From positions 1,890,001 through 1,922,000 of the forward strand of contig OZ252279.1 of assembly GCA_965250005.1 (NCBI GenBank): a stretch of 32,000 bases of DNA, in the 5' to 3' direction. This document shows positions 1-13,138 of this stretch, piece by piece. The position numbers and the translations under genes are program-made. The notes below the pieces were generated by a model. It was not told the origin of the DNA. It did not search any database and saw nothing but the letters and a program-made list of their open reading frames with translations. The stretch comes from Demequinaceae bacterium (lineage in GTDB: Bacteria > Actinomycetota > Actinomycetes > Actinomycetales > Demequinaceae). How positions within the stretch are numbered: the stretch's first letter is position 1; each line of letters starts with the position of its first letter.

Positions 1-3000
1 ACATCGAAGTCGAATATGCCCGCGATATTGATGGTGTTGGCGACGCAGATCCAGACGACCCGTACGGGCTGACAGTCTGTGAAGCCGATGGATTCGTCAA
101 CGAAGCAGCGATCGACACGTACTACGACACCGTTTTCGCGAACGGTTGGGACGAAAACAGCCAACTGTGCTCCCCGTCCTCGAACGCAGACGACGCACCC
201 ACATTCCACAAATATATGGTCACCGAAGTACGCCTCGTCGATGCGGTGGCGCCCGTACCTGTTGATGCAGACGAAGACGGCGACTTTGAGGAAGCAACAT
301 CGAGCGACTTTTTTGACTACCTGACCACCGTTAACCGATACGACTACATCGGTGAGCCTGCCTGGGCTTACGCCGATTCGATCATGTCGGAGCGCGGCCA
401 GGGTGGACAAACATGGAACGTGTTCCGTGGCTACGAAATTGTTGAATCCTGGGTAGGTGAGAACCTCACCGACTATGCGGTCACCCGCAACCAGTATTAT
501 CGCGGAACATCTGGGGGATACCTCGAAAATGGCACGCTCGCGTCAACAGTCGAACTGACACGTATCAGTGACGGCACAACAGTTGAAGACCTTGCAGACC
601 TGTCTGGCATGCTTGCCGCAACTTCGACGGTGCGCCGCGAAGTTGATGGCCAAACGGTCACCGATACGCTCGCAACAGCCTCACACAGTGACTACACAAT
701 TGAGCGGGCTGTCGCACTCGATGTGCGTGAAGTAGACCTCAATCTTGGGGTCGGTGCAGAACTGATCGAAGTTGGTGACGCAAACAACGACGGCAACGCG
801 GACCTACTTGCCTGGCTTGCCGACAAGTCGTTGGTTCTGTATTACGGTGACGGCAACGGTGGCGTGACCGACGTTGACGGCACCGTTGTGTCTGCCGCAT
901 GGAGCACAACGGCAGACAAAATTATTGCACCCGGATCGTGGGATTCAACCGTCGACGATTATGTAGACCTCATCGAAGTCAAAGACGGATATTTGCGACT
1001 ACATCGCGGTGCTGGCGATGGCACATGGGCGTCAACGAGCACCCAGATCGGTAGCGGTTGGGGCAGCTTCTTGGACATTTTGGTGCCAGGTGACTGGAGT
1101 GGCGACAGCAAACCTGACATCCTGCCCATTCAAACGGACAGCGACCTTCGGTTGTATACCGGCAACGGCACCGCCACATCCCCCACAACAGTCGGCGTCA
1201 TTGCCCAAATAGTTGATGAAGACTACATGCGTTTTGGCGACTTCGACGGCGACGGCAAAACTGATGCCGCACACCACTACGACACCGACTGGCATGCATC
1301 ATATTCTGGGACCGGCGACTGGATATTCCTTGGTGGCTCGCAATATGGGGCCGATCAGGTCCGTTTCGATGGCGACTTCGACGGCAACGGCACAACCGAT
1401 ATGGCAATGCACACGTCGAGCGGGTGGCGTGTGCAATGGGACTCCAACAGTTCCTGGGAATACATCAACGACAGCACCATTACCGCAAATCTGTGGTTCG
1501 TGGATGTTGGCGTCAAAACTGCAGGCGACCCCACCGGTGTGGATGACATCGTTTGGTTTACCGGAAGCAAATTTTCTGTGCGTTGGTCTGGCCAAGGAAA
1601 CTGGGTAGACCTCAACACGTCCACATTGGGTTCCGACAAATCCTTTGCCGATATTGACGGCGACGGTGAAGCCGACATGATCAAACAAAACACGCTCGGC
1701 TGGCTAGTGTGGTGGTCCGGTAAAGGCCCCTACGAATACATCAACACTGATCTCAGTGCTGGCGACAATGTTATGTTCGGCGACTTTGATGGTGATGGCA
1801 GCGACGATTTGGTGCGCCGACGCAACGGCAACTGGGAATACAACTCTGCTTTGTTAGCTGACAGTGCCGCCGAATGGACCCACCTCATAGCCGAAGGTGG
1901 CACCAGCGGTGAAGGTGGTGTCTACGACTACGACGACTTCCACTATGAGGTGTGGGATTTTGATGGCAACGGCACATCAGATCTTGTCCGCTCCGGTGAC
2001 GGCGGCTGGATGGTCCTATACGACGGCACAGGCAACTGGCAACAAATCGCAGCCTCCCAATGGGCCCAATACGACACTTTTGTTGACGGCGGCGACTACA
2101 ACGGTGACAGCATTGCAGACATTATTGCCATCTCCGCCATCGGCAACGTCGATGTTCTCTACGGTGAAGGCGACAACGGTCCACCCGCCAACGCCCAAAA
2201 AACTGTCATAACCAACATTGGCGACGCCCAACAACTCGTCGCACCCGGAGACTGGAACGGCGACAACGTACCCGACCTACTCCTACTTGAAGCCGACGGA
2301 ACACTCATGCTTCACGGCGGCACCCCCCACACCACCAGCGGTGACGGCTCCTACTACAGCCAAACCATCCACTCCGAAACGTCATGGTCGATGGTCACCG
2401 AACCAGGACTTACCGTGCCGTGGGTGAAAACCTCAACCTCGACCACCGCGTTTGACGGCCAAAACCTGCCCATCACATCCGAATCAACCGTGATCGAAAC
2501 AGTCGACGGCATCCAAACAGCAGGCTCACCGTTCACATCCTGCACGGCCATGGAACATTTGTGGCGTGTTGACGACGACGCCGCTACGGGAGATACCAAC
2601 ATCGGATGGGATGCTGTAGACGGCTGGGGTGGAGACATCTACCTGTCAGCAACATGGCGCACCCGCACACATGAAGGCGCCTGTGACGACTCAGAGAAAA
2701 TCCTGACCGGTGTTTCAGAAACCTATTTTGATGGCGCCACCTGGGATGACAACGAACCCCAAGACCTGTTAACACGAGGTTTAGTAACAACAGAAATTGC
2801 GTACCCCATCTATGAAGGCGCCACCGCTGCCGCCAAACGTGGCAACGCCGCAATCTCCGTCGCAGAATATGATGCCCGCGGCCGTATCGCGAAAGCATGG
2901 ATGCCCAACGACGTCTCCTTGAACGCCACCACCGGAGCACTAGAAACCAACAACAGCTTCACCACATGGACATACGGTGCGTTCGCCACGTCGGGTGACC

Positions 3001-6000
3001 ACGCAGGCTTGGCGGAATTGACGGTAGGCACCACCGTTGAGTGGGCTGAAGGTGTGCCGACAACGTATTCGACGTCGCAATGGGTGGAGCCCACGCGCGG
3101 TAGTGGGGTGAAGTCCATTGACCTCAACGAGCACTACACGCATTACCGATTCGACCCGTTCGGCCTGCTTGAGGCGGGTTACGCGTCCACGACGTGGGAT
3201 GGCGCCACGGCTCCGTGGTTGGAGTCCAGTTATGTGATTCCGACGGCGTCGTTTGAGTACGACGTGTACGCCCCTGGTGTGGGCGTGCGTTCCACACCTG
3301 TGACAGTCACCTCTGCCCAGCATGCAGGCTACGACGCGGCCGCCAATGCCGGTGCAGGCCAATGGGTCTGCCAAGAAGCCGCCTGCTTCGTGAAACGTTC
3401 CTACATGTTCCTCGATGGATGGGGGCGTGCCGTCGAACAGCACCGTGTTGCACCAGACGGATCCGGTGGACGGCTAGTCTCCGCGACCAGGTACAACAAA
3501 CTCGGGCACATCGAGTTTGTTGCCTCAACGTTCTGGAACGAAGATGCCGCACAGCTGTCGAACGGAAGAGTTGACCCCGTCCTAGGTCAACTAGACCAGT
3601 TTGCGACCACAACGGTGGATTGGGCTGGCAGGGCTACCACCCAGTCGGTGTGGTACCGGGACCCGACTCTCGGGTTGTTGGAGACAAAGACCGACACCGT
3701 GTTCCTTGGCAACATCAGTCAGGTGGAGGCTGCCTCCGGTGCGATCACGGAGACCAAGAACGACGTGTTGGGTCGTTTGGTGCGGCAGTCGCAACACCCG
3801 GAGACCGGTTACGAGCTCGCCGAGGCATTCAACACCATCTACTCCTATGAAACTCTGACGGATGGCGGTAGCAAAGTCACCGTCACGGACCCCGACGACA
3901 ACGACACCGTGTTTGTGTCGAACATGGCGGGTCAGCGCACGTCGCTGGACGACCCGAACTCGGGCCTTTCGGCGTACACGTATGACTTGAACGGGCAAAC
4001 GACCTCGGTGGACTCCGAGGCTGGATTGATCATGATGGTCTATGACACGTTGGGTCGCATGATTGAACGTTACGGATTCCGTCCGGGTATCGATCCGGAC
4101 GACTCCGGTACGGTGTGGGCTGACTATTTGACCGCGGAGTGGACGTACAACGTCGGTCAGGCGGGTCTACCTGCGGCGGCTCCGGACGGTGCGTTGGTGG
4201 CGACATCGGCGACCACGTGGGTGCCCGATGGCGGCACAGGGTTCGATAGCTATGTGACGATCCAGACCACCGACGATTGGGACGCACTAGGCCGCCCCAC
4301 CGAATCAACCCTGACGCTACCGACAACATTGAACCTGGGGGAGCTCTCTGGCGACATGGATGCCGGAAAGTACACCCGGACCATTGAATACGACGAACTA
4401 TCCCGTCCGACGGTGACATTGCCCGCGATCGCTGGCCTGCCGGAACAAACCATTCTGAATGGTTACAACCGATTCGGTACGCCAGTGACGTTGGACGTGT
4501 TGAATAACCCAGGCCCCTCGCAAACGGTGACACCTATTGTTACGGGTGTTGGACTGGATGAGTTGGGTCGGTTGACGTCACGGTCGTATGCGAACACGGT
4601 GGACAGGTTGATTCAGTACGACGCCCAGTGGGGCGCACCGGAACGTATCGCTGCGGTGTTTGATCCGGGTACGGGTGACATTGCCATCCAGGATGACGTG
4701 TTTGTACGTGACGATGTGGGTCGCGTGACGTCGATTCAAGATGATTCAACATATGAATCGGCAAACCCACATGAAGCCCAATGTTTCGTCTATGACGGCC
4801 ACAACCGGCTCGCAAATGCGTGGACTGAAGCAACAGATGGATTCACGGACACGTGCGACACGTTTGCGACGTTGCCGACCACTCAGACTGAGTGGGATGC
4901 GAGTGCGTGGGCTGCGTCTGCTGGACCATATGCAACCACCTGGGAGTACTCAGATTCGGGTCGGATTGAGTCCATCACGAACCTCATCGAGGATGGCCTG
5001 TCAGGTTCCACAGAATCGGTGCAAGCCTTCGAATATGACTCCGACGGCAATGGCACAGAACTGTCGGTAAACGATTTGCCGCATGCGGTCTCCGGTGTAG
5101 ACAACGATGGCGACAGCACTGTCGATGACACGTTCGAATATGGCACCGCTGGCCGTCAAACGGTTCGCACCGTCGATGGGGTTACCTCCACGTTGACGTG
5201 GGATGTGTCCTCCAACCTTGTGAAAGCCGTCGTCGATGATGGCACGAATGAGGCGACGTGGGTGTATGTGTATGACGCATCTGGGCAGCGGGTCACCAAA
5301 ATCCAGCTCGATGGATCAACTCCAATAGATGCGACTGCATATTTTGGTGAAACTGAAGTCACCGACACAGACACCAGCACTGATGGTGCTTCAGACGTGA
5401 CCGCGGTGCGCTACTATCAGTTTGGTGGCGCCACGGTCGCCCTCGAACAGTCTGTTGAACACCCCACCAGCCCCACCGTGGACCTGTTCTACCTGTTTGG
5501 TGACTTCCAAGGCTCCGCACAGGTGATGATGTCTGATGCTCGAGACGTCAACGGTAACCCCGACCCCACAAACGCAGACATCTTGCGCAACGCCTACACC
5601 CCCTATGGGGCACAACGGTCGATAGATGTTGACGTCGACACCAACCCCGACCCAAACCTGCCCACCGAACGTGGCTGGCTATCCCAAATCAGGGACGAGC
5701 CCACCGACACCGCAGGTACCCTCGGCACTGGGCTGACATATTTGAACGCCCGCTACTACGACCCGGTAACAGCACGCTTCCTGTCCCCGGACCCACTCAT
5801 GAACCCCCAGGATCCACGCACCCTGGATCCATACCGGTATGCGGATAACAACCCTGTGCTCTACACAGATGCATCTGGGCTGTGCACCAATATGGCGATG
5901 GCGACGTTCGCCGCGCACAAAGCGTGCGAAACGTGGAACGCCAACAACGGTGATGGGGGCATCACAGGAGGCAACGACGGCGGTTCGGATGGTGCCGGAA

Positions 6001-6758
6001 ACTCCGGAGGGGCCGGTAGCTCGACGCAGCCTTCGGAAGATCAGGCGTTCGACTGTGGGACGTTTTCTTGGTACGACGGATGCTCAAACGATATTCCCGC
6101 GGGAGACTTCAACGAGCGCCTGGGGTTCGTCGAAGGGCTATCGATCGCGGGATGGGGCTTCACAAACTTCTGGGTCGGCGTGGGGAACGCAGGTCTCGGC
6201 GTCATAAACTTTGCCCGATGCTCCTTCAACTATGCGGGAGGCATGGGGCCACAATTAGCTGCAACAACATGCGGGGCTGCCACCATAGGAAATGGCGGAT
6301 ACGTTCCGGGAGGGTACTATTTCGGGCCCGTTGGCCCAGACGACGAACTATACGAACTTAGTATGGACATCGGGAAAATTACAACCGAGTCGGTAGCGCT
6401 CTCCGCAGCGAGTGGATTGGCAGCTGGAACTGCCTTAACAGTGAGTCGCACGACTGCCAATCTCGGGGCAACCGGCACGACACAATTGGGGACCTATCCC
6501 ATCTATATAGACCGCGCCCGCGCGACAGGCGCCAGCTACTTCAATGTGGGTAATGCCTGGAATTGGACGACGCGGGGTGCTCGGGCCGCCGCCAATACTC
6601 GATTCTTGAACACCACGATTGCGAATGCGGACCGGGTCCTGACGACAACGCCAAGGATCGCGATTCAAGAAGGCACGGCCTTGTATTCCGAGATTGCATA
6701 TCTTGAAGCCAACGGATATCGGTGGGTTAATCAATGGGCGCTGGTGCTATCGGGATGA
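1..6758 (+). CDS. Rhs-family polymorphic toxin (FG-GAP/VCBS repeats + YD repeats + RHS core + variable C-terminal toxin domain); 5'-partial, continues upstream of the window
   Basis: Frame 3 has no stop between nt 3 and the first Met at 216, so the ORF is open to the left window edge. At least 11 FG-GAP-like Asp-rich motifs are present (GDANNDGNADLL, GDFDGDGKTD, GDFDGNGTTD, DIDGDGEADM, GDWNGDNVPDLL). About 15 YD repeats are present (EYDARGRI, VYDTLGRM, FVYDGHNRL, YVYDASGQRV). The RHS core ends ...LNARYYDPVTARFLSPDP...YRYADNNPVLYTDASGL and is followed by ~291 aa of unrelated sequence. Confidence 0.93.
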   Translation, partial: IEVEYARDIDGVGDADPDDPYGLTVCEADGFVNEAAIDTYYDTVFANGWDENSQLCSPSSNADDAPTFHKYMVTEVRLVDAVAPVPVDADEDGDFEEATSSDFFDYLTTVNRYDYIGEPAWAYADSIMSERGQGGQTWNVFRGYEIVESWVGENLTDYAVTRNQYYRGTSGGYLENGTLASTVELTRISDGTTVEDLADLSGMLAATSTVRREVDGQTVTDTLATASHSDYTIERAVALDVREVDLNLGVGAELIEVGDANNDGNADLLAWLADKSLVLYYGDGNGGVTDVDGTVVSAAWSTTADKIIAPGSWDSTVDDYVDLIEVKDGYLRLHRGAGDGTWASTSTQIGSGWGSFLDILVPGDWSGDSKPDILPIQTDSDLRLYTGNGTATSPTTVGVIAQIVDEDYMRFGDFDGDGKTDAAHHYDTDWHASYSGTGDWIFLGGSQYGADQVRFDGDFDGNGTTDMAMHTSSGWRVQWDSNSSWEYINDSTITANLWFVDVGVKTAGDPTGVDDIVWFTGSKFSVRWSGQGNWVDLNTSTLGSDKSFADIDGDGEADMIKQNTLGWLVWWSGKGPYEYINTDLSAGDNVMFGDFDGDGSDDLVRRRNGNWEYNSALLADSAAEWTHLIAEGGTSGEGGVYDYDDFHYEVWDFDGNGTSDLVRSGDGGWMVLYDGTGNWQQIAASQWAQYDTFVDGGDYNGDSIADIIAISAIGNVDVLYGEGDNGPPANAQKTVITNIGDAQQLVAPGDWNGDNVPDLLLLEADGTLMLHGGTPHTTSGDGSYYSQTIHSETSWSMVTEPGLTVPWVKTSTSTTAFDGQNLPITSESTVIETVDGIQTAGSPFTSCTAMEHLWRVDDDAATGDTNIGWDAVDGWGGDIYLSATWRTRTHEGACDDSEKILTGVSETYFDGATWDDNEPQDLLTRGLVTTEIAYPIYEGATAAAKRGNAAISVAEYDARGRIAKAWMPNDVSLNATTGALETNNSFTTWTYGAFATSGDHAGLAELTVGTTVEWAEGVPTTYSTSQWVEPTRGSGVKSIDLNEHYTHYRFDPFGLLEAGYASTTWDGATAPWLESSYVIPTASFEYDVYAPGVGVRSTPVTVTSAQHAGYDAAANAGAGQWVCQEAACFVKRSYMFLDGWGRAVEQHRVAPDGSGGRLVSATRYNKLGHIEFVASTFWNEDAAQLSNGRVDPVLGQLDQFATTTVDWAGRATTQSVWYRDPTLGLLETKTDTVFLGNISQVEAASGAITETKNDVLGRLVRQSQHPETGYELAEAFNTIYSYETLTDGGSKVTVTDPDDNDTVFVSNMAGQRTSLDDPNSGLSAYTYDLNGQTTSVDSEAGLIMMVYDTLGRMIERYGFRPGIDPDDSGTVWADYLTAEWTYNVGQAGLPAAAPDGALVATSATTWVPDGGTGFDSYVTIQTTDDWDALGRPTESTLTLPTTLNLGELSGDMDAGKYTRTIEYDELSRPTVTLPAIAGLPEQTILNGYNRFGTPVTLDVLNNPGPSQTVTPIVTGVGLDELGRLTSRSYANTVDRLIQYDAQWGAPERIAAVFDPGTGDIAIQDDVFVRDDVGRVTSIQDDSTYESANPHEAQCFVYDGHNRLANAWTEATDGFTDTCDTFATLPTTQTEWDASAWAASAGPYATTWEYSDSGRIESITNLIEDGLSGSTESVQAFEYDSDGNGTELSVNDLPHAVSGVDNDGDSTVDDTFEYGTAGRQTVRTVDGVTSTLTWDVSSNLVKAVVDDGTNEATWVYVYDASGQRVTKIQLDGSTPIDATAYFGETEVTDTDTSTDGASDVTAVRYYQFGGATVALEQSVEHPTSPTVDLFYLFGDFQGSAQVMMSDARDVNGNPDPTNADILRNAYTPYGAQRSIDVDVDTNPDPNLPTERGWLSQIRDEPTDTAGTLGTGLTYLNARYYDPVTARFLSPDPLMNPQDPRTLDPYRYADNNPVLYTDASGLCTNMAMATFAAHKACETWNANNGDGGITGGNDGGSDGAGNSGGAGSSTQPSEDQAFDCGTFSWYDGCSNDIPAGDFNERLGFVEGLSIAGWGFTNFWVGVGNAGLGVINFARCSFNYAGGMGPQLAATTCGAATIGNGGYVPGGYYFGPVGPDDELYELSMDIGKITTESVALSAASGLAAGTALTVSRTTANLGATGTTQLGTYPIYIDRARATGASYFNVGNAWNWTTRGARAAANTRFLNTTIANADRVLTTTPRIAIQEGTALYSEIAYLEANGYRWVNQWALVLSG
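774..2325 (+). other. FG-GAP/VCBS-like repeat region of the Rhs protein (predicted beta-propeller)
   Basis: DxDxDG-type motifs recur every ~45-60 aa. Two subtypes are visible. The outer repeats read D..PD(L/I)L...DG.L.LY.G.G. The six inner repeats read GDFDG(D/N)G..D.....GW.V.W(S/D)G.G.W..(I/L). Confidence 0.75.
2860..5300 (+). other. YD/RHS-repeat shell region
   Basis: Repeated Y(D/N)xxG(R/Q) motifs: AEYDARGRIAKAW, TRYNKLGHIEF, YTYDLNGQTTSV, MVYDTLGRMIERY, IEYDELSRPT, FVRDDVGRVTSI, WEYSDSGRIESI, YVYDASGQRVTKI. Confidence 0.85.
5407..5882 (+). other. RHS repeat-associated core domain, ending at the predicted autoproteolysis or toxin-demarcation motif
   Basis: VRYYQFGG...FYLFGDFQGSAQVMM...AYTPYGA...GLTYLNARYYDPVTARFLSPDP...DPYRYADNNPVLYTDASGL. 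The canonical DPxGL motif is DASGL here. Confidence 0.8.
5883..6755 (+). other. Variable C-terminal (toxin) region of the Rhs protein; family unrecognised
   Basis: This is the sequence after DASGL. It has a Gly/Asn/Asp-rich linker (NNGDGGITGGNDGGSDGAGNSGGAGSS), a Cys-containing segment, and two Gly-rich hydrophobic segments (nt 6120-6215 and 6387-6443). The terminal ~90 aa (nt 6486-6755) contain no His, Cys, Lys or Met. Confidence 0.6.
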
Positions 6759-7138
6759 ACGATCGAGATCGGTGGGCAGACTTAACGAGGAGGAGGCTTC
6801 CGCGGCAAATGCGTCGTTTTGTGCGCATCTCCCGCGGGGCTCTTTCGGAGGCCGGGTTTGTGCCGACGTCGGTGTCGGTTTCTGCGGTCAACGGTGGGGC
6901 GGCAGCGATTCAGTTCAGCAGTAGCGAACTCGATATCGAAGTTGTATGGGAACGAGGGCACATCGCAGCGTGGGTGCGAAGAGACGTGCGTGGGAAGCGA
7001 AAGCTCGTGAAGATGACGGACGTGCACCGCGTTTCGGAACTTGGGTCCCGCACAGATCCGCTTCGTGTCGCGGGGATGGCGCGTCTGTTACGGGCAGTCG
7101 CACGTGACTTGCCCAAGATCATTGCAGACTTGCCGTAG
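6734..7138 (+). CDS. Hypothetical protein; candidate cognate immunity protein of the Rhs C-terminal toxin
   Basis: It lies immediately downstream of, and overlaps, the rhs 3' end. The ATG at 6734 is preceded by GGTGGG 7 nt upstream. An alternative in-frame ATG at 6755 forms an ATGA overlap with the rhs stop (6756-6758). The product is 127-134 aa, Arg-rich, with no signal peptide or TM segment and no recognisable motif. The assignment is by position only. Confidence 0.55.
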   Translation: MGAGAIGMNDRDRWADLTRRRLPRQMRRFVRISRGALSEAGFVPTSVSVSAVNGGAAAIQFSSSELDIEVVWERGHIAAWVRRDVRGKRKLVKMTDVHRVSELGSRTDPLRVAGMARLLRAVARDLPKIIADLP

Positions 7139-7505
7139 CTGAAATCGAGGCGGTTCGTCGTTCTGAGGGTCACGAGGGCGAAACGGGCTACTTGGTCCCG
7201 CCGGCCGCCTTGATCGCAATAGCGATGGGGGCTGGTGCAGGAACTGGTGACAGTTGGAGCCAACCCCGCTTTCCCGGACACGGGGTGTGTGTTGATCATG
7301 CCGCAATTTCGGCATGGGTGTGAAGTGCTTCGAATGTTGCGGGGCTGACGGAAACCGCCGCCAATACGCCCCCGCCGTATAGGAGCCACCGCGTGATGCG
7401 GTCGGGAGGGGCAGTGGTTGTCGCGAAGCCGCCGTGCAAGAATCAGAACATATGTAGCGTCGCGGAATCATCCGCGCGGGCGATACCGCGTTCGCGTGTA
7501 TTCGT

Positions 7506-7532
7506 GGGAACATGGGTGTACCCAGAACCGTT
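7506..7532 (+). promoter_or_regulatory. Candidate ECF (SigE/SigH-type) promoter: GGGAAC-N17-CGTT
   Basis: GGGAAC lies at 7506-7511 and CGTT at 7529-7532, with 17 nt between. This matches the actinobacterial ECF consensus GGAAC-N16-18-(C/G)GTT. It ends 8 nt before the sigE ATG at 7541. Confidence 0.4.
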
Positions 7533-7540
7533 GAGCAGAC

Positions 7541-8152
7541 ATGGAGACGCAGATGCAGCAAGTACCTGCGCGTCCCGTCGCGCTCAGCGACCAGGTCACA
7601 GCCCCGGCAATTCCGGACCTCACGTGGGAAGGGATCGTCCGCGATCACTCTCCCCGGGTCTACCGCTTGGCGCTGCACCTCACCGGCAACCCGCATGACG
7701 CGGAAGACCTCACACAAGATGTGTTCGTCCGCGTCTTCAACTCGTTGTCCCAGTACAAGCCCGGCACCTTCGAGGGTTGGCTGCACCGCATCACCACCAA
7801 CCTCTTCCTTGACCGCGTGCGCCGCAAAAAGCGCATCCGGTTCGACTGGATGGGGGACAACGCCGACGGCGTCGCGACATCGGACTCTTTCGATCGTCAT
7901 GAGCGCAGCGGCCAGCCTGAAGATGCCTTCGACATGGGAAACCTTGGAGACGACATCATCGACGCACTCGGGGACTTGCAGCCCGAGTACCGCGCGGCTG
8001 TGGTGCTGAGCGACATCGAAGGCCTCTCCTACGAGGAGATTGCGGCAACTCTGGGGATCAAGATGGGCACCGTCCGCTCGCGGCTTTCGCGGGCGCGGGC
8101 AAAACTCCGTGAATCCCTAGCGCACCGTGCTCCCTCGGAGGGAGCAGTGTGA
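7541..8152 (+). CDS. sigE: ECF RNA polymerase sigma factor, SigE-like
   Basis: Sigma-70 region 2 (DLTQDVFVRVF...FEGWLHRITTNLFLDRVRRKKR) and region 4 (YRAAVVLSDIEGLSYEEIAATLGIKMGTVRSRLSRARAKLRE) are present. The sigE/anti-sigma/htrA/tatB order matches M. tuberculosis Rv1221-Rv1224. Confidence 0.9.
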   Translation: METQMQQVPARPVALSDQVTAPAIPDLTWEGIVRDHSPRVYRLALHLTGNPHDAEDLTQDVFVRVFNSLSQYKPGTFEGWLHRITTNLFLDRVRRKKRIRFDWMGDNADGVATSDSFDRHERSGQPEDAFDMGNLGDDIIDALGDLQPEYRAAVVLSDIEGLSYEEIAATLGIKMGTVRSRLSRARAKLRESLAHRAPSEGAV

Positions 8153-8991
8153 CAGCCCGTCACCTCGGAAACCGGATACACGATCTCGTAGACGGCAGGC
8201 TTTCGCGCGCCGACACGTACGGCGCCATGGCGCACCTCGCAGACTGCGACGAGTGCGGCAGCGAATGGGAGCAGCTTCGCAAGGAGCGCGCCGCACTCCA
8301 AACGTCCGGCACCGGCATCGACATGTCCTTTGCTCGTACACTGCTGGATCGCGACCGCATCGCAGAAATCGCGAAGGTTGAGCCCCGCCGCCACCAGAAA
8401 GTATCGAAGGGTCCTGGCATCAATGTCGCGTTGGTCGTGAGCGTCTCCGTCATCGCTGGGGGGCTTGGGCTCGGCGGCCTCTACATGTTGGGTGCGCCCA
8501 GTGAGGCCCGCCTCGACTTTGACGGCGCGTCTCCCGTCGCAGGTCAAAGTGTGCAGTACATGAACGCCCCGAGCATGCGCACCGGCGAGCACCTGAACTC
8601 GTGGCTACACCCGGAATGGCAATCCAGCGGTTTAGTTCCTATCGAGGCGATGCTGCTTCAGGCTGAAGACGGCTCGACGGTGCTCGTGGCGCGCATCCTC
8701 AGCGGACTCGAAACGGTGACGGTGACCGAGCAGCACGGACGGCTTCCCGTGGGCATTGGCGAGACCTTTGGGCCTGGCAGCACCGGGGACCTGGAGTCGT
8801 TCGTGGTGCGTGAGGAGCCCGCAAGGATTGTTTTCGAAGCCGGCGACACCGTGGTCACTCTTGGGTGCGAGTGCGCGCTTGAGGTGCTCGAAGATATTGC
8901 CGAAGAATTTCCCGATGGTGAGGATCCGAGTGTGATCGAGCGCATCGGTGACGGCTTCGACTCCATCACAAGCGCCATCGTTGGCGACTAG
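8149..8991 (+). CDS. Membrane-anchored zinc-binding (ZAS, zf-HC2) anti-sigma factor
   Basis: The GTG start overlaps the sigE stop (GTGA at 8149-8152) and GGAGGG lies 5 nt upstream. An H-x3-C-x2-C motif is present (AHLADCDEC). There is one TM segment (INVALVVSVSVIAGGLGLGGLYML), followed by ~165 aa predicted to be extracytoplasmic. Confidence 0.8.
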   Translation: MTARHLGNRIHDLVDGRLSRADTYGAMAHLADCDECGSEWEQLRKERAALQTSGTGIDMSFARTLLDRDRIAEIAKVEPRRHQKVSKGPGINVALVVSVSVIAGGLGLGGLYMLGAPSEARLDFDGASPVAGQSVQYMNAPSMRTGEHLNSWLHPEWQSSGLVPIEAMLLQAEDGSTVLVARILSGLETVTVTEQHGRLPVGIGETFGPGSTGDLESFVVREEPARIVFEAGDTVVTLGCECALEVLEDIAEEFPDGEDPSVIERIGDGFDSITSAIVGD

Positions 8992-9005
8992 AGGAGGACC
9001 CTTGC

Positions 9006-10277
9006 ATGGATGACAGTCTTTTTGCGCCCCCCGGCGACGGCAAGACCCCCGCTAGCGTGGTGCCAGCGAAGCAACCGGTCGCCGCCGTCGTGAGCGCGCC
9101 GGCCGCGCTCACGACGCCCGTCATCGTTCCGACTCTCGCAACCGACGGCGCCGGACGCAACGACCGCCAATCGCTGAGCGTAAGCCCCGGCTGGATTGCG
9201 CTGATCCTGAGCCTTGCCTTGGTGGTGGGCGCGCTCGGTGGGGTGGGCGCTTACCTAATCGCGGACAATGCCCGAACGTCCGTCGATCTCCCCGGCACCG
9301 TGAGCAGCACCGAGTTTGACCGTCCAGAGGGTTCCGTCGCAGCCGTTGCGGCGGCCGCCTTGCCCTCGGTGGTGGCGATCGACTCGACCAACGGCGGCGC
9401 CATCATTGCTTCGGGCTCCGGGTTCGTCATTCACGCCGACGGCTACATACTGACCAATCATCATGTGGTCGCATCCAGCGACGGCACAGTGCGCATCGTC
9501 TACGCGGACGGCGAAGTCGAGACCGGCACCGTGGTGGGCAGCACCGCCGACTACGATCTTGCCGTAGTTAAAGTCGACCGCGAGGGCCTGGTGCCGCTGG
9601 TCCTTGGAGACTCGAGCGCGCTCGTCGTAGGCGACCCGGTGATAGCGATCGGTTCGCCCCTTGGCCTCGACGCGACCGTGACAACGGGCATTGTGAGCTC
9701 CCTCCACCGGCCCGTAGGCGGTTCCGGCGGAGGCTCGTTCATCGACGCCATTCAGACGGACGCGGCGATCAACCCAGGTAACTCTGGCGGGCCGCTGGTG
9801 AACGCGGTCGGGGAAGTCATCGGCATCAACTCTGCCGTCGCCGCCCTTCCGGGGGCGACGCAGGCTTCGGGCGCCGGCTCGGTTGGTCTCGGCTTCGCGA
9901 TTCCGTCCAATCAGGCGCGACGCACTGCCGAAGAGATCATTGAGACCGGCGAGGCCACATACCCGGTGGTCGGCGTCCTCCTGGACGAGACGTACCTGGG
10001 CCAGGGCGTGCGCATCATCGAAGACGATCCCGCGGCAGGAGTCCGCGCCGTCGTCCCCGGCAGCCCCGCAGACCTTGCTGGCCTCCGGGCCGGCGACATC
10101 ATCATCTCGATCGATGGCCGGCCCGTGACGCGGCCATCGGAGCTGGTGGTGGCGATCCGCGCGCACGCACCGGGCGACGTGGTTGTTCTCGAAATCTCTG
10201 ACGACGGCACCGTCACGACGGTCTCTATCGAACTGACGGCCAACGTCAACATCGTCTTCGAAGACGGTTCCGAGTAG
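9006..10277 (+). CDS. htrA: HtrA/PepD-family trypsin-like serine protease with C-terminal PDZ domain
   Basis: Catalytic triad contexts are TNHHVV, DLAVVKV and GNSGGPL. The PDZ-like segment reads GSPADLAGLRAGDIIISIDGRPV. There is an N-terminal TM segment, and GAGGAGG lies ~8 nt upstream of the ATG. Confidence 0.92.
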   Translation: MDDSLFAPPGDGKTPASVVPAKQPVAAVVSAPAALTTPVIVPTLATDGAGRNDRQSLSVSPGWIALILSLALVVGALGGVGAYLIADNARTSVDLPGTVSSTEFDRPEGSVAAVAAAALPSVVAIDSTNGGAIIASGSGFVIHADGYILTNHHVVASSDGTVRIVYADGEVETGTVVGSTADYDLAVVKVDREGLVPLVLGDSSALVVGDPVIAIGSPLGLDATVTTGIVSSLHRPVGGSGGGSFIDAIQTDAAINPGNSGGPLVNAVGEVIGINSAVAALPGATQASGAGSVGLGFAIPSNQARRTAEEIIETGEATYPVVGVLLDETYLGQGVRIIEDDPAAGVRAVVPGSPADLAGLRAGDIIISIDGRPVTRPSELVVAIRAHAPGDVVVLEISDDGTVTTVSIELTANVNIVFEDGSE

Positions 10278-10320
10278 CTCCGGCTGGCGCGGCGGCGCCG
10301 TCGCGCGGCACAATTGAGTC

Positions 10321-10665
10321 ATGTTCGACATCAACGGCGCGGAGATCCTGGTGATCCTCGTGATCGCGCTTGTGATTGTTGGCCCGGAGCGCCTCCCCAA
10401 GTACGCTGCGCAATTCCGTGCCGTAGTGCGCAAGGCTCGGGATTTCACCCGCGACGCAGAGTCGTCGGTGCGCACCGAACTGGGCGATGCCGACCTCGCC
10501 TCGCTGGACCCCCGCCAGTACGACCCGCGCCGCATCGTCCGCGATGTTATGGCAGACGACCCTGCGCCTAGCGTGACGACACGACCCACAGGCCCGGCGA
10601 AGCGTACAAGCGCGACCGCTCGGAGTGCAAGCGCGCCTGCACCGTTCGACCCAGACGCCACCTAG
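10321..10665 (+). CDS. tatB: Twin-arginine translocase subunit TatB
   Basis: The N-terminus MFDINGAEILVILVIALVIVGPERLPKYAAQFR is a TatB-type TM plus amphipathic helix. Its position after htrA matches mycobacteria. Confidence 0.85.
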   Translation: MFDINGAEILVILVIALVIVGPERLPKYAAQFRAVVRKARDFTRDAESSVRTELGDADLASLDPRQYDPRRIVRDVMADDPAPSVTTRPTGPAKRTSATARSASAPAPFDPDAT

Positions 10666-10698
10666 GGGCCGGATCGCGGCGGCACGACCCAAACGTGA

Positions 10699-11739
<1,041 letters not shown>

Positions 11740-11773
11740 TGCGTTTTGGGCCGCGACCGCCTAACGTCGGAAT

Positions 11774-13138
11774 ATGCGAACAGCACGGTTTGCCACAGCG
11801 GCCACACTGACGGGCGTTCTGGCGCTGTCCGCATGTAGCGACCCATACGAAGATCCGTACCGCGAAGCCCAGCCGCCGCCGCCCGCTGCGGATGTGCTGG
11901 AATACATCAATCTGGCGGCGGTCGGTCTGCGCAGTTACGAATGCGACCTCTTTGAGGCGCCGCAGAGCCGCTGCTACGACGCCGCCCGGTGGGGGTCAAT
12001 CCGCGCGGGTCGTGAGACGCTCGCGCACGTGCATCGAGAGTTACTCGCCGCGGGGGCCTGGTACTTCGGAGGCTCCGAGCACACCCGGGCCGACGAGGCG
12101 CCCGAGGTGTCTGGCCTCAATCTAGGCTGCTATTTCGACTACGCGGCGCAGGACTACGCGCTCCGGGTCGCCGTTGTTGGTCCGTCTGGCGAAGGGCTGA
12201 GCTGCAAGAACGGCCTTCCCGCGGATGGGGTCAGCGAGGTGTGGGTCATCGCAGCGGAGTTTGACGCCGAAGAAATCTATGAACGCGTGGAGATTCCGCT
12301 GGGCTTCGAACTGCTGCTGCGGTCGCTGCCTCACCGGCCTACTCGCTCGAACGAGGTTTACGGCGGCCAGTCCGCCACGGCGACAGGGTACGAGGGACCC
12401 GAGTTGCCGGCGCTAGGAGACGGTGCTGGAGTGCACGTGCTTCCCGAGACGCTTTCCGTCCGGGACGGCGTTGTCCGTGGATTAGTGCAGTACCGTGGAG
12501 CAGCTCCCACGCTCTCGGTTCTGAACGAAGATGATGGACCTGAAGCGACCGCCGGGCCCGGCCAGATTGTGACGGTGCAGCGGGAGACGTCGGGCGCGTG
12601 GGGAATTGTTATTGGCGTGGCAAACGAGTCGACCACCATCCCTATCGTGGTGCGACCGGGGGAGTCGGCCCCCTTCGAGCTCCCGCTTCCTGAGGGCTTC
12701 ACGGCCGAGGACGTCCACGTCTTGACCGGTTGGCAGCATGTCGAAGAGGACTGGCGTGGGGCACTCTGGCTTGCCGGCCCGGAGGTCAACTCCGACTGCG
12801 GGGCGGGCCAGCAAATTGGCGGTGAGCCCGTGGAGGCCCTCATCCCCGCCACGGGTCAGGAGTGCCTAGAGGTGTTTTCTCAGGCCACGACCACGGTGGG
12901 CGACCGCATCATTGTGGACGGACTAGTCGCGATCTTCAACGAGGATGGCACCATCTACGACGTGCTTGAGCCGTATGTGATCCGCGAAGACGGCGGCCAA
13001 CCGGGACTGATTCGCTTGAACACCAACAGCCCGGACCTGCGATTCGCGTGGGTCTCGCCTGCGGGATTCGCGGATTCCGTAGGAATCTGGATGCGCTACG
13101 CAAAGTTGCGTGAGCTGGCAAACTCCCCAGCCGTGTAA
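11774..13138 (+). CDS. Hypothetical lipoprotein
   Basis: Signal peptide with lipobox: MRTARFATAATLTGVLALSAC-SD. Third-position GC is high throughout. I recognise no domain. Confidence 0.7.
   Translation: MRTARFATAATLTGVLALSACSDPYEDPYREAQPPPPAADVLEYINLAAVGLRSYECDLFEAPQSRCYDAARWGSIRAGRETLAHVHRELLAAGAWYFGGSEHTRADEAPEVSGLNLGCYFDYAAQDYALRVAVVGPSGEGLSCKNGLPADGVSEVWVIAAEFDAEEIYERVEIPLGFELLLRSLPHRPTRSNEVYGGQSATATGYEGPELPALGDGAGVHVLPETLSVRDGVVRGLVQYRGAAPTLSVLNEDDGPEATAGPGQIVTVQRETSGAWGIVIGVANESTTIPIVVRPGESAPFELPLPEGFTAEDVHVLTGWQHVEEDWRGALWLAGPEVNSDCGAGQQIGGEPVEALIPATGQECLEVFSQATTTVGDRIIVDGLVAIFNEDGTIYDVLEPYVIREDGGQPGLIRLNTNSPDLRFAWVSPAGFADSVGIWMRYAKLRELANSPAV

What the first reader, a model, noticed from the sequence alone, without database searches (positions are those of the whole stretch)
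5883..7138. Rhs C-terminal toxin domain of no recognisable family, with an overlapping candidate immunity gene
After the RHS core boundary (..NNPVLYTDASGL, nt ~5882) the protein continues for ~291 aa that match no toxin family I can name. The terminal ~90 aa (QLGTYPIYIDRARATGASYFNVGNAWNWTTRGARAAANTRFLNTTIANADRVLTTTPRIAIQEGTALYSEIAYLEANGYRWVNQWALVLSG) contain no His, Cys, Lys or Met. That argues against HNH/AHH-type nucleases, His-dependent RNases, deaminases, Cys proteases and Zn-metalloenzymes. The available chemistry is left to Arg, Asp, Glu, Tyr and Trp. A 127-134 aa ORF overlaps the rhs stop, via ATGA at 6755-6758 or an SD-preceded ATG at 6734. This is the standard position for a cognate immunity gene. 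Its product is basic and lacks a signal peptide or TM segment, which suggests a cytoplasmic target. I regard this as the most likely place for undescribed toxin biology in the window.
Basis: partly seen in the sequence, partly recalled or inferred. Interest (0 to 1): 0.72.

Follow-up and report, generated by a model that had tools for sequence, protein, structure and literature searches.

The report
Uncatalogued Rhs toxin domain with immunity gene
The tail of a giant Rhs protein carries a ~100-residue toxin domain from a large, widespread family that no protein database names, and the gene after it is a very divergent copy of that family's usual antidote gene, so this is a real toxin-antidote pair whose way of killing is still unknown.

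Summary
The Rhs core ends at nt 5882 (TIGR03696), and 291 further residues match nothing in Pfam, NCBIfam or the PDB. Only the last ~104 aa (nt 6444-6755) form a domain. The preceding 187 aa are a Gly-rich linker with no homologues.

The domain belongs to a large uncatalogued polymorphic-toxin family:
- It has 1660 cluster representatives and always sits at the C-terminus.
- It is fused to Rhs, PT-HINT, PT-TG or PT-VENN scaffolds in many phyla.
- AlphaFold gives a confident alpha/beta model (pLDDT 90) with no significant Foldseek neighbour.
- One Glu is invariant. Lys and His are dispensable.

In 73 of 75 related loci the toxin is followed by one of two unnamed cytoplasmic immunity families, A (60 loci) or B (13). 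The window ORF 6734-7138 is a remote family A member (HMM E 1e-4 among 479 window ORFs; hhalign 86%; 0 of 2000 shuffles reach its score). It is unusual in being C-terminally short and very basic. Its start may be the ATG at 6809.

The enzymatic activity is unknown. My best guess is a Glu-dependent nucleotide/NAD N-glycosidase, resting on weak TIR/NDT fold hints (about 0.25-0.3). A nuclease is about equally likely. This is a new toxin family within a known kind of system.

The parts
3..5882 (+). Body of the Rhs/YD-repeat protein. It has FG-GAP-type repeats in the N-terminal part, then the YD-repeat shell. The reading frame is open to the start of the window, and the first ATG is at 216.
   Evidence: Searches show the frame open from nt 3. 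Pfam FG-GAP_3 matches at E 2.3e-18 with 7 stretches. TIGR01643 YD repeat scores 17.9 bits (cutoff 15.8). GC is 57% against 63% for the window.
5727..5882 (+). RHS-associated core domain, ending ...RYADNNPVLYTDASGL. This is the expected autoproteolytic boundary that releases the C-terminal toxin; cleavage is inferred, not shown.
   Evidence: TIGR03696 matches at E 1.7e-13, 50.8 bits against a cutoff of 32.5, residues 1838-1889.
5883..6443 (+). 187-aa Gly-rich, mildly hydrophobic linker or pre-toxin segment (46 Gly in the 291-aa tail). It has no detectable homologues.
   Evidence: only the terminal domain found a relative; phmmer against all fetched loci and proteins found nothing below E 0.4; hydropathy. 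Pfam found no PT-TG match.
6444..6758 (+). Toxin domain of ~104 aa plus the stop codon, a member of an uncatalogued polymorphic-toxin C-terminal family with the signature ...GASYF(D/N)xG..W...N..FL...D.V(L/T)(S/T).P(K/R)...L..E..YL...GYxWVNQW.L. The invariant Glu (domain residue 83, protein residue 2159) is the codon GAG at 6690-6692.
   Evidence: Searches cover homologues and conservation. AF2 gives pLDDT 89-90 and pTM 0.81-0.83.
6734..7138 (+). Candidate immunity gene. The ORF is 134 codons from ATG 6734, with alternative starts at ATG 6755 (ATGA overlap with the rhs stop) and ATG 6809. It is a remote, C-terminally shorter and unusually basic relative of immunity family A.
   Evidence: Searches support homology. 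The codon-position GC pattern 0.66/0.52/0.64 is coding-like. pI is 11.6.
6787..6796 (+). Shine-Dalgarno-like GAGGAGGAGG, 12 nt upstream of ATG 6809 counted from the last GGAGG.
   Evidence: Read directly from the sequence. Homology to family A starts at codon 25-26 of the ORF, nt 6806-6811.

Best explanation
Nt 5883-7138 encode the variable killing end of an Rhs polymorphic toxin and its antidote.

Supported by family membership (TIGR03696 core match); encapsulation, autoproteolysis and delivery themselves follow from published Rhs work:
- The YD-repeat shell encloses the C-terminal region.
- The aspartyl autoprotease of the RHS core cuts after ...DASGL (nt 5882).
- The released 291-aa tail is delivered into a competitor cell.

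Shown here by homology:
- Only the last ~104 aa of the tail are a folded, conserved domain.
- This domain belongs to a large, previously uncatalogued family of C-terminal toxin domains with a compact alpha/beta three-layer fold (b1-a1-b2-a2-a3-b3-a4-b4-b5).
- The family has a single invariant Glu (E83 of the domain). Y21, S31, N51, D63 and Y92 are nearly invariant.

Inferred:
- The toxin acts in the target cytoplasm. Both immunity families that travel with it lack signal peptides and transmembrane segments.
- The producer is protected by the product of the next gene (ORF 6734-7138, possibly starting at 6809), which binds and blocks the toxin. This ORF is a very divergent member of the family's main immunity family.
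- Activity (weakest step, about 0.25-0.3): a Glu-dependent hydrolase of the Rossmann-like N-glycosidase type, as in TIR NADases and nucleoside deoxyribosyltransferase/DNPH1. It would destroy NAD(P)+ or another essential nucleotide. A metal-independent nuclease is about as likely.
For: Rhs core boundary:
- TIGR03696 ends at nt 5882.

Toxin family:
- P0001, another Rhs C-terminus, is 43% identical over the last 98 aa. Thirteen further relatives are 36-52% identical.
- The exhaustive profile search found 1660 representatives with E<=1e-3 and 866 with E<=1e-10.
- The domain is terminal in 146 of 148 complete copies.
- It is fused to RHS/YD, PT-HINT, PT-TG and PT-VENN scaffolds across Actinomycetota, Chloroflexota, Acidobacteriota, Bacteroidota, Planctomycetota, Verrucomicrobiota, Spirochaetia and Proteobacteria.
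- Conservation over 160 sequences: E83 100%, Y92 99%, G16 99%, Y21 98%, N51 97%, S31 97%, D63 94%. All of these are retained in the window copy.

Fold:
- AF2 gives pLDDT 89.1 and 90.0, pTM 0.81 and 0.83.

Immunity:
- 60 of 75 loci have family A and 13 have family B directly downstream.
- Orphan immunity genes sit behind toxin stumps in L026, L070 and L075-78.
- Neither immunity family has hydrophobic segments.
- The family A HMM ranks the window ORF first of 479 six-frame ORFs (E 1.1e-4, next best 1.1).
- 0 of 2000 shuffles reach its score, and hhalign gives 86% probability over 104 columns.
- phmmer with the ORF returns family A genes as its top 8 hits.
- The control against family B gives 0.1%.

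Activity hint:
- The best Foldseek TM-score is to the TIR protein ThsB (0.47). DNPH1 scores 0.36-0.38.
- A phage N-deoxyribosyltransferase ranks second in BFVD (probability 0.57, E 0.13).
- The best local profile alignment to real phage NDTs places E83 on the NDT Glu nucleophile.
Against: Activity assignment:
- No fold match is significant. All PDB hits have E>0.6 and TM<0.5. The best BFVD hit has E 0.04.
- Profile-profile comparison with NDT gives probability 0.2% and P 0.25. Comparison with TIR gives <1%.
- GNAT acetyltransferases appear as often as NDT or TIR among the weak hits.

This particular copy:
- It replaces second-tier conserved residues: D34N, K24R, D56N, L67T, S68T, K71R, H53R.
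- Its immunity ORF lacks the last ~26 residues of family A.
- The ORF has pI 11.6 against a family median of 5.9.
- The ORF has no detectable homologue by direct search.

Not tested here: cleavage, delivery route, toxicity and neutralisation.
Confidence: 0.8

Rival explanations
1. The domain is a nuclease, most likely a metal-independent RNase or tRNase and less likely a DNase, rather than a nucleotide or NAD glycosidase.
For: - From published work on polymorphic toxins, most characterised Rhs/CDI/LXG toxins with cytoplasmic immunity are nucleases. This is prior knowledge, not tested here.
- Toxin domains of the family are mostly basic (median pI 8.9; window copy 10.0) and family A immunity proteins are mostly acidic (median 5.9).
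- Weak matches to the ~100-aa derived-Rossmann ring nuclease Csx16 recur in three libraries: Pfam PF09652 in 6 members with best E 0.018, NCBIfam TIGR02620, and PADLOC Csx16 with best E 0.0028.
- Csx16 is a metal-independent cA4 phosphodiesterase with a 5-stranded sheet flanked by helices (PMC12409355).
Against: - The Csx16 matches cover only 27-47 residues.
- They align toxin strand b1-b2 to the middle of the Csx16 model, so they are out of register for a global match.
- They are all below family thresholds.
- The family has only one invariant acidic residue and no conserved His, so it shows no two-metal or His-dependent nuclease signature.
- No nuclease fold appears among the Foldseek hits with a meaningful score.
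Confidence: 0.3
2. This particular copy is a decaying or inactive module. The toxin has lost activity through substitutions at conserved positions, and the downstream ORF is a truncated remnant of an immunity gene.
For: - The window copy is the only one of 151 aligned members that combines D34N, K24R, D56N, L67T, S68T, K71R and H53R.
- The ORF stops ~26 residues before the family A C-terminus.
- The ORF is strongly basic (pI 11.6) whereas 80% of family A is acidic.
- Neither the ORF nor the linker has a close relative anywhere.
Against: - The toxin is fused in frame to a complete Rhs shell and core with no frameshift or stop.
- Every residue conserved at >=94% is retained.
- Each deviating substitution also occurs in other members, and all are conservative (K to R, D to N, S to T).
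- AF2 folds this sequence with pLDDT 89-90.
- The ORF is intact with a coding-like GC pattern.
- Reading through its TAG does not improve the match to family A, and no remnant of the missing C-terminus lies downstream.
- L036, the closest Rhs relative, shares the LTTPR variant, so this is a subclade trait rather than random decay.
Confidence: 0.12
3. ORF 6734-7138 is not an immunity gene. It is either a chance ORF in GC-rich DNA or an unrelated small basic protein.
For: - No homologue was found by the word-index search of 5.8 billion proteins.
- It has no Pfam or NCBIfam match.
- BLASTP against one family A member found nothing.
- Overlapping minus-strand ORFs exist (6910-7389 and 7088-7900).
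Against: - It is the top hit of the family A profile among all 479 window ORFs (E 1.1e-4), and 0 of 2000 shuffles reach its score.
- hhalign gives 86% over 104 columns against 0.1% for the unrelated family B.
- In the reciprocal phmmer search the top 8 hits are all family A genes.
- Its position directly after the toxin stop matches 73 of 75 related loci.
- Its codon-position GC pattern is like that of the rhs gene.
Confidence: 0.07
4. The domain is a minimal GNAT-like acyltransferase that inactivates a target by acetylation, as the TacT/AtaT toxins do to aminoacyl-tRNA.
For: - GNAT proteins are the most frequent class among the top Foldseek hits in both libraries. In the PDB these are 3gy9, 2k5t, 1wwz, 4pv6, 1xeb and 7k09. 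In BFVD they are several small phage acetyltransferases of 104-110 aa.
- The segment b3-loop(IRPGS)-a4-b4 resembles the GNAT b4/pyrophosphate-loop/a3/b5 pattern. This is my own reading of the sequence.
Against: - All these hits have E>=0.4, TM 0.26-0.35, and 63-110 aligned columns with rmsd 4.7-8.2.
- A 100-aa domain cannot contain a full GNAT fold.
- The 'loop' residues are only 47-67% conserved.
- No Pfam GNAT model matches any of ~100 members even at E<=10.
Confidence: 0.04

Closest known systems
Rhs/YD-repeat polymorphic toxins with cognate immunity (for example T6SS-linked Rhs effectors such as Tre23/RhsP2-type toxins, and WapA of Gram-positive bacteria)
   Same: - YD-repeat shell, RHS-associated core ending in a DPxGL-type motif (here DASGL), a variable C-terminal toxin, and an immunity gene immediately downstream.
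- Orphan toxin-stump and immunity arrays occur in related loci.
- GC is lower than in the neighbouring genes.
   Different: - The toxin domain and its immunity partner belong to families absent from Pfam, NCBIfam and the PDB.
- The N-terminal part carries FG-GAP-type repeats.
- No PAAR, VgrG, LXG or signal-peptide element is visible within the window, and the N-terminus lies outside it, so the secretion route is unknown.
Rossmann-like N-glycosidases: TIR-domain NADases (ThsB, SARM1) and nucleoside 2-deoxyribosyltransferase/DNPH1
   Same: - Compact three-layer alpha/beta domain.
- One essential Glu at the start of the helix that follows a central strand, and a conserved Tyr in the b1-a1 loop.
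- These are the best, though weak, structural neighbours: ThsB TM 0.47, DNPH1 0.36-0.38, and a phage NDT with probability 0.57.
- The best local profile alignment puts E83 on the NDT nucleophile.
   Different: - There is no significant sequence or profile similarity: hhalign gives 0.2% for NDT and <1% for TIR, and no Pfam TIR or NDT hit.
- All TM-scores are <0.5.
- The domain is one beta-alpha unit shorter and ends in a b4-b5 hairpin carrying the family's GYxWVNQW signature.
Csx16 / CARF7-type minimal ring nucleases
   Same: - About 100 aa, a derived Rossmann fold with a 5-stranded sheet flanked by helices, and metal-independent chemistry (PMC12409355).
- Sub-threshold HMM matches recur in three libraries.
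   Different: - The matches are local (27-47 aa), out of register and below every curated threshold.
- The family is not CRISPR-associated.
- It is always the C-terminus of secreted polymorphic toxins and is paired with immunity genes.
Recently reported uncharacterised polymorphic-toxin domains (PT1-PT9, bioRxiv 10.1101/2021.10.19.465003; Tox1-Tox24 behind W10XG/PT-TG, PMC13483458)
   Same: - Short C-terminal domains found by architecture, with novel predicted folds.
- Cytoplasmic immunity genes lie directly downstream.
- They are fused to many trafficking domains, including PT-TG.
   Different: Identity with any of them could not be tested. No sequences are held in the text or supplements available here, and the motif strings WVNQW and GASYFD occur in neither paper nor anywhere in the library. 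The taxonomic ranges described for PT5 and PT6 overlap this family only partly.

Membership tests
Rhs / YD-repeat polymorphic toxin | RHS-associated core domain (TIGR03696) ending in a PxxxxDPxGL-type motif, immediately before the variable C-terminus | tested here: met
   TIGR03696 scores 50.8 bits (cutoff 32.5) over residues 1838-1889, ending at nt 5882. The motif variant is DASGL.
Rhs / YD-repeat polymorphic toxin | Multiple YD repeats forming the shell | tested here: met
   TIGR01643 scores 17.9 bits (cutoff 15.8). Many YDxxGR-type motifs are visible in the translation. The shell region is 41% identical over 407 aa to another Rhs protein, L036. Pfam PF05593 itself did not report a hit on the whole protein.
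Rhs / YD-repeat polymorphic toxin | Autoproteolytic release of the C-terminal toxin and delivery into a target cell | not testable with these tools
   Inferred from the family. The secretion determinant would lie upstream of the window.
GYxWVNQW C-terminal toxin family (unnamed; defined here) | Profile match over the whole ~100-aa domain at the extreme C-terminus | tested here: met
   The window copy is 36-52% identical to 14 members. P0001 matches at E 1.3e-13 in a single-sequence search. The domain ends 0-6 aa from the protein end in 146 of 148 members and in the window.
GYxWVNQW C-terminal toxin family (unnamed; defined here) | Invariant or near-invariant residues E83, Y21, Y92, N51, S31, D63, G16 | tested here: met
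   All are present in the window copy.
GYxWVNQW C-terminal toxin family (unnamed; defined here) | Second-tier conserved residues D34 (90%), K24 (82%), S68 (86%), K71 (81%) | tested here: not met
   The window has N, R, T and R at these positions. Each change occurs in 3-9% of members, but the combination is unique.
Immunity family A (unnamed; defined here) | Profile match and position directly downstream of the toxin | tested here: met
   HMM E 1.1e-4 (16.9 bits), first of 479 window ORFs. 0 of 2000 shuffles reach the score. hhalign gives 86% over 104 columns. The match is remote, since direct BLASTP finds nothing.
Immunity family A (unnamed; defined here) | Full length of ~133 aa including the C-terminal helix ...LKxLxxxRxKxxFG, with a mostly acidic charge | tested here: not met
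   The window ORF ends at family position ~109 of 135. Its pI is 11.6 against a median of 5.9. No remnant of the missing part lies downstream.
TIR / nucleoside deoxyribosyltransferase (Rossmann-like N-glycosidases) | Sequence or profile similarity to the family | tested here: not met
   hhalign of the toxin profile against a profile of 9 real phage NDTs gives probability 0.2% and P 0.25. Against TIR and DNPH1 sequences recalled from memory it gives <1%. No Pfam TIR or NDT hits appear at E<=10.
Csx16 / CARF7 ring nucleases | Match to Csx16 models at or above threshold over most of the model | tested here: not met
   Only 27-47-aa local matches were found, with E 0.003-0.1 and 12-14 bits against a Pfam cutoff of 25. 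They map to model positions ~30-83 of 90-98.
Named toxin families (HNH/AHH, Ntox, Tox-REase, deaminase, ART, TNT, RES and others) | Pfam or NCBIfam profile match | tested here: not met
   No toxin-domain model matches the window tail or ~100 family members. Only pre-toxin domains upstream were hit.

The most novel reading that the evidence does not exclude
The ~100-residue domain is a new minimal Rossmann-like enzyme fold with a toxic activity not yet described for polymorphic toxins. One example would be a Glu-dependent N-glycosidase acting on a nucleotide, cofactor or nucleic-acid base other than the known NADase targets. It would define one of the larger still-unnamed toxin families (1660 cluster representatives) and would come with two dedicated, equally unnamed immunity families.
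Probability: 0.3. Interest if true: 0.7.

Novelty: new variant of a known kind. Interest (0 to 1): 0.55.

Why it matters
Rhs and related polymorphic toxins have been a productive source of new enzymology, including NADases, RNA ADP-ribosyltransferases, (p)ppApp synthetases and the DNA deaminases used for base editing. This domain is small (~100 aa), folds confidently, is spread over at least eight phyla on at least four delivery scaffolds, and has one invariant Glu, yet no database names it and no solved structure resembles it. It also comes with two unrelated immunity families, which gives ready-made specific inhibitors and a clean genetic test. Defining its target would annotate more than a thousand protein clusters at once. 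It might also add a compact new enzyme to the toolbox. The window copy has diagnostic value of its own. It shows which conserved residues (both Lys, the His, D34, S68) can be replaced, and how far an immunity protein can drift while keeping its place.

Tried and rejected
Database and structure searches that found nothing:
- Pfam, NCBIfam, PADLOC and PHROGs scans of the window tail, the ORF and up to 88 family members found no toxin-domain or immunity model. Only upstream PT-HINT, PT-TG, PT-VENN and RHS domains were hit.
- PDB sequence searches with single sequences and profiles of the toxin and of immunity A found nothing below E 0.01.
- Foldseek against the PDB (two models) and BFVD found nothing significant.

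Homology hypotheses tested:
- Homology to NDT/DNPH1 and TIR was tested by hhalign and is not significant. I keep it only as a weak structural lead.
- Csx16/CARF7 homology is rejected as a global relationship, because the matches are local and out of register.
- The YdgH/BhsA hits are about 20 residues long and were rejected.
- A direct homologue search with the ORF found nothing.

Checks on the immunity ORF:
- The family B immunity profile finds nothing in the window.
- I considered read-through of the ORF's TAG, or a frameshifted C-terminus. Neither gains any score.

Other checks:
- I considered selection against Lys, for example to evade pupylation. It is not needed, because the whole Rhs protein is Lys-poor (1.3%) and the chance of no Lys in 104 aa is 0.26.
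- The linker has no homologues.
- Promoter, terminator and Rfam scans of 5500-8000 were uninformative.
- Exact-match look-ups of window proteins, and plasmid and phage tblastn searches, found no source record.
- The literature holds no occurrence of the family motifs.


Full report
**What is in the window.** A very long reading frame on the + strand ends with TGA at 6756-6758. The frame is open back to nt 3, so the 2180 aa counted from ATG 216 are a minimum. Its N-terminal part carries FG-GAP-type repeats (Pfam FG-GAP_3, E 2.3e-18). The rest is full of YD-type repeats. The NCBIfam RHS-associated core model TIGR03696 matches residues 1838-1889 at 50.8 bits against a cutoff of 32.5. A further 291 aa follow (nt 5883-6755). 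They match nothing in Pfam, NCBIfam or PDB sequences. The last 104 aa contain no His, Cys, Lys or Met. An ORF of 134 codons (6734-7138) overlaps the rhs stop. The ATG at 6734 and the ATGA at 6755-6758 are both present.

**Only the last ~104 aa are a domain.**
- A search with the full 291 aa found one relative, P0001. It is the C-terminus of another Rhs protein and is 43% identical over the last 98 residues only.
- A two-sequence profile then found 13 more relatives at 36-52% identity.
- An exhaustive profile search of 1.84 billion representatives found 1660 proteins with E<=1e-3 and 866 with E<=1e-10.
- In 146 of 148 complete copies the domain ends within 6 residues of the protein's end.
- The upstream parts differ widely: Rhs/YD shells, PT-HINT, PT-TG, PT-VENN, and large proteins of 1600-3400 aa.
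- Genome hits come from Actinomycetota, Chloroflexota, Acidobacteriota, Bacteroidota, Planctomycetota, Verrucomicrobiota, Omnitrophota, Spirochaetia and Proteobacteria.
- A conserved module at the extreme C-terminus of many unrelated scaffolds is the signature of a polymorphic-toxin domain.
- The 187 aa between the Rhs core and the domain (nt 5883-6443) are Gly-rich and mildly hydrophobic, and they have no homologue even among the fetched relatives.

**The domain is uncatalogued.**
- No Pfam, NCBIfam, PADLOC or PHROGs model of known function covers it, either in the window copy or in about 100 relatives scanned one by one.
- Source annotations say only 'hypothetical protein'.
- Profiles of 15 and 88 members find no PDB sequence.
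- AlphaFold2 gives confident models with a 15-row alignment (pLDDT 89.1, pTM 0.81) and an 88-row alignment (pLDDT 90.0, pTM 0.83). Both show the same order of elements: b1(12-15) a1(20-28) b2(31-32) a2(36-41) a3(44-60) b3(64-67) a4(79-89) b4(92-96) b5(99-102).
- Foldseek finds no neighbour with E<0.6 in the PDB or E<0.04 in BFVD.

**Conservation.**
- Over 160 sequences E83 is invariant. The near-invariant residues are Y92 99%, G16 99%, Y21 98%, N51 97%, S31 97% and D63 94%.
- A second tier is D34 90%, S68 86%, D56 86%, K24 82%, K71 81% and H53 67%.
- The window copy keeps the whole first tier. It replaces the second tier with N, T, N, R, R and R, a combination unique among the 151 aligned members.
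- Nine of 146 members have no Lys and nine have no His, so neither residue is catalytic.
The argument from this one copy was weak, however, because the whole Rhs protein is poor in K, H, C and M.

**The partner gene.**
- I fetched 78 loci encoding the domain.
- In the 75 loci with at least 300 nt downstream, 60 have a ~133-aa protein of one family (A) starting at or just after the toxin stop. Thirteen have an unrelated ~120-aa family (B), and two have something else.
- Neither family is in Pfam or the PDB.
- Both lack hydrophobic segments.
- Family A is mostly acidic (median pI 5.9) and the toxin is mostly basic (median pI 8.9).
- Several loci hold only a stump of the toxin followed by a complete family A gene, or tandem stump-immunity units (L026, L070, L075-78). 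This is the usual picture of orphan immunity genes.

**The window ORF and family A.**
- The window ORF has no direct homologue.
- The family A HMM, searched against all 479 six-frame ORFs of the window, ranks it first. With 17 sequences E is 2.2e-3. With 49 sequences E is 1.1e-4 at 16.9 bits, and the next hit has E 1.1.
- None of 2000 shuffles exceeds 8.1 bits.
- hhalign gives 86% probability over 104 columns, aligning ORF 25-132 with family positions 3-109.
- The control against family B gives 0.1%.
- The reverse search with the ORF returns family A genes as its eight best hits.
- The ORF is therefore a remote family A relative in the canonical position.
- It is atypical in two ways. It ends about 26 residues before the family's C-terminal helix, and its pI is 11.6.
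- No remnant of the missing end lies downstream, and reading through the TAG gains nothing.
- Homology begins at codon 25-26. An ATG at 6809 sits there, preceded by GAGGAGGAGG at 6787-6796. The true start may therefore be 6809 rather than 6734 or 6755. This is not settled.
- The codon-position GC pattern (0.66/0.52/0.64) resembles that of rhs.

**How it most likely works.**
- Supported by family membership (TIGR03696 core match); the steps themselves are known from published Rhs systems, not tested here: encapsulation of the tail in the YD shell, autoproteolysis after the core motif, and delivery to a competitor.
- Shown by homology: the toxin domain and the immunity pairing.
- Inferred: a cytoplasmic site of action, from the cytoplasmic immunity proteins.
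- The activity is the open question.

**Evidence on the activity.**
- The only structural hints are weak but recur in two independent libraries. The highest TM-score in the PDB is to the TIR protein ThsB (0.47). DNPH1 scores 0.36-0.38. A phage N-deoxyribosyltransferase ranks second in BFVD (probability 0.57).
- A single invariant Glu on the helix after a central strand, plus a Tyr after b1, fits Rossmann-like N-glycosidases.
- I tested this. A profile built from nine real phage NDTs aligns to the toxin profile with probability 0.2% (P 0.25). That is not significant, although the best local alignment does place E83 on the NDT nucleophile.
- TIR and DNPH1 sequences recalled from memory gave <1%.
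- Weak matches to the small ring nuclease Csx16 recur in three libraries, but they are local and out of register (Csx16 properties from PMC12409355).
- GNAT proteins also recur among the weak fold hits.
- I commit to a Glu-dependent nucleotide/NAD N-glycosidase at about 0.25-0.3 and a nuclease at about 0.3. The remainder is spread over other activities.

**Context.**
- The rhs gene has 57% GC against 63% for the window.
- It is followed by an ECF sigma factor, a zf-HC2 anti-sigma factor, an HtrA-like protease and TrpRS. This points to an acquired module next to housekeeping genes in a GC-rich, probably actinobacterial genome. The taxon is my inference.
- The closest Rhs shell, L036, is 41% identical over 407 aa. 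It carries the same toxin family with the same LTTPR variant but a family B immunity gene. Immunity type therefore switches even within a subclade.
- The source genome is not in the searchable collections.

**Novelty and verdict.**
- The system type is well known.
- The toxin domain and both immunity families are, as far as every library here can tell, unnamed and structurally unmatched.
- Papers reporting new polymorphic-toxin domains (bioRxiv 10.1101/2021.10.19.465003; PMC13483458) could not be compared, because no sequences are held. The family's motif strings occur nowhere in the library. Prior description under another name cannot be excluded.
- I rate it a new variant of a known kind, with interest 0.55. 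It is a solid, testable lead of a type that specialists meet fairly often. It stands out for the family's size and breadth, its small confident fold, and its single invariant Glu.

Noticed in passing
window 1-330: The Rhs reading frame is open from nt 3, so the protein's N-terminus lies upstream of the window, along with any signal peptide or PAAR, LXG or WXG element. The sequence after ATG 216 shows no signal peptide (max KD19 0.73).
   Followed up: partly
window ~1200-2300 (Rhs residues ~340-690): Seven FG-GAP/VCBS-type repeat stretches (Pfam FG-GAP_3, E 2.3e-18) precede the YD shell. Pfam RHS_repeat itself gave no hit on the whole protein, although NCBIfam YD and RHS-core models did.
   Followed up: partly
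window 216-6758 versus 7541-13138: The rhs gene has 57% GC and weak GC3 bias (0.64). The neighbouring genes have 62-67% GC and GC3 of 0.74-0.80. This suggests the toxin locus was acquired horizontally.
   Followed up: partly
window 7541-11739: Downstream lie an ECF sigma factor (7541-8152), a zf-HC2 anti-sigma factor (8149-8991, overlapping by 4 nt), an HtrA-like Trypsin_2-PDZ protease (9006-10277) and tryptophanyl-tRNA synthetase (10726-11739). This is a sigE/rseA/htrA-like housekeeping cluster.
   Followed up: partly
L010, L016, L019, L025, L035, L036, L038-L041, L045, L048, L061, L068 (directly after the toxin stop): A second, unrelated immunity family (B, ~120 aa, motif W..YS.DKR.TP.WY ... 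AC..FI) follows the same toxin domain in 13 of 75 loci. It is also absent from Pfam, and hhalign of A against B gives 0.2%.
   Followed up: partly
L036:1125-3517: This metagenomic Rhs has the shell closest to the window protein (41% over 407 aa). It shares the unusual LTTPR variant of the toxin but pairs it with family B immunity, so the immunity type has switched within one toxin subclade.
   Followed up: partly
L026:7766-8485; L070:1121-2299; L075-L078: These loci hold orphan arrangements. The last 20-50 residues of the toxin domain are followed by a complete family A immunity gene, in tandem in L070. In L002 a toxin stump and immunity gene sit between a Y1 transposase and a DDE transposase. 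In L003 an Imm26 gene and a resolvase follow the pair.
   Followed up: partly
window 7139-7213: Read in frame past the ORF's TAG, the sequence gives LKSRRFVVLRVTRAKRATW. By eye this recalls the family A C-terminal motif LKxLxxxRxKxxFG, but adding it does not raise the HMM or hhalign score.
   Followed up: yes
window 7139-7540: There is a gap of about 400 nt between the immunity ORF and the sigma-factor gene. It holds no toxin or immunity remnant and no Rfam match. The long minus-strand ORFs here (6910-7389, 7088-7900) look like shadows of the plus-strand genes.
   Followed up: partly
family alignment: Nine of 146 family members have no Lys in the domain and nine have no His. In the window copy both ~81-82%-conserved Lys positions and the 67%-conserved His are Arg, and it has no Lys at all. 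I considered a link to evasion of Lys-directed tagging (pupylation), but it is not required by the statistics.
   Followed up: partly
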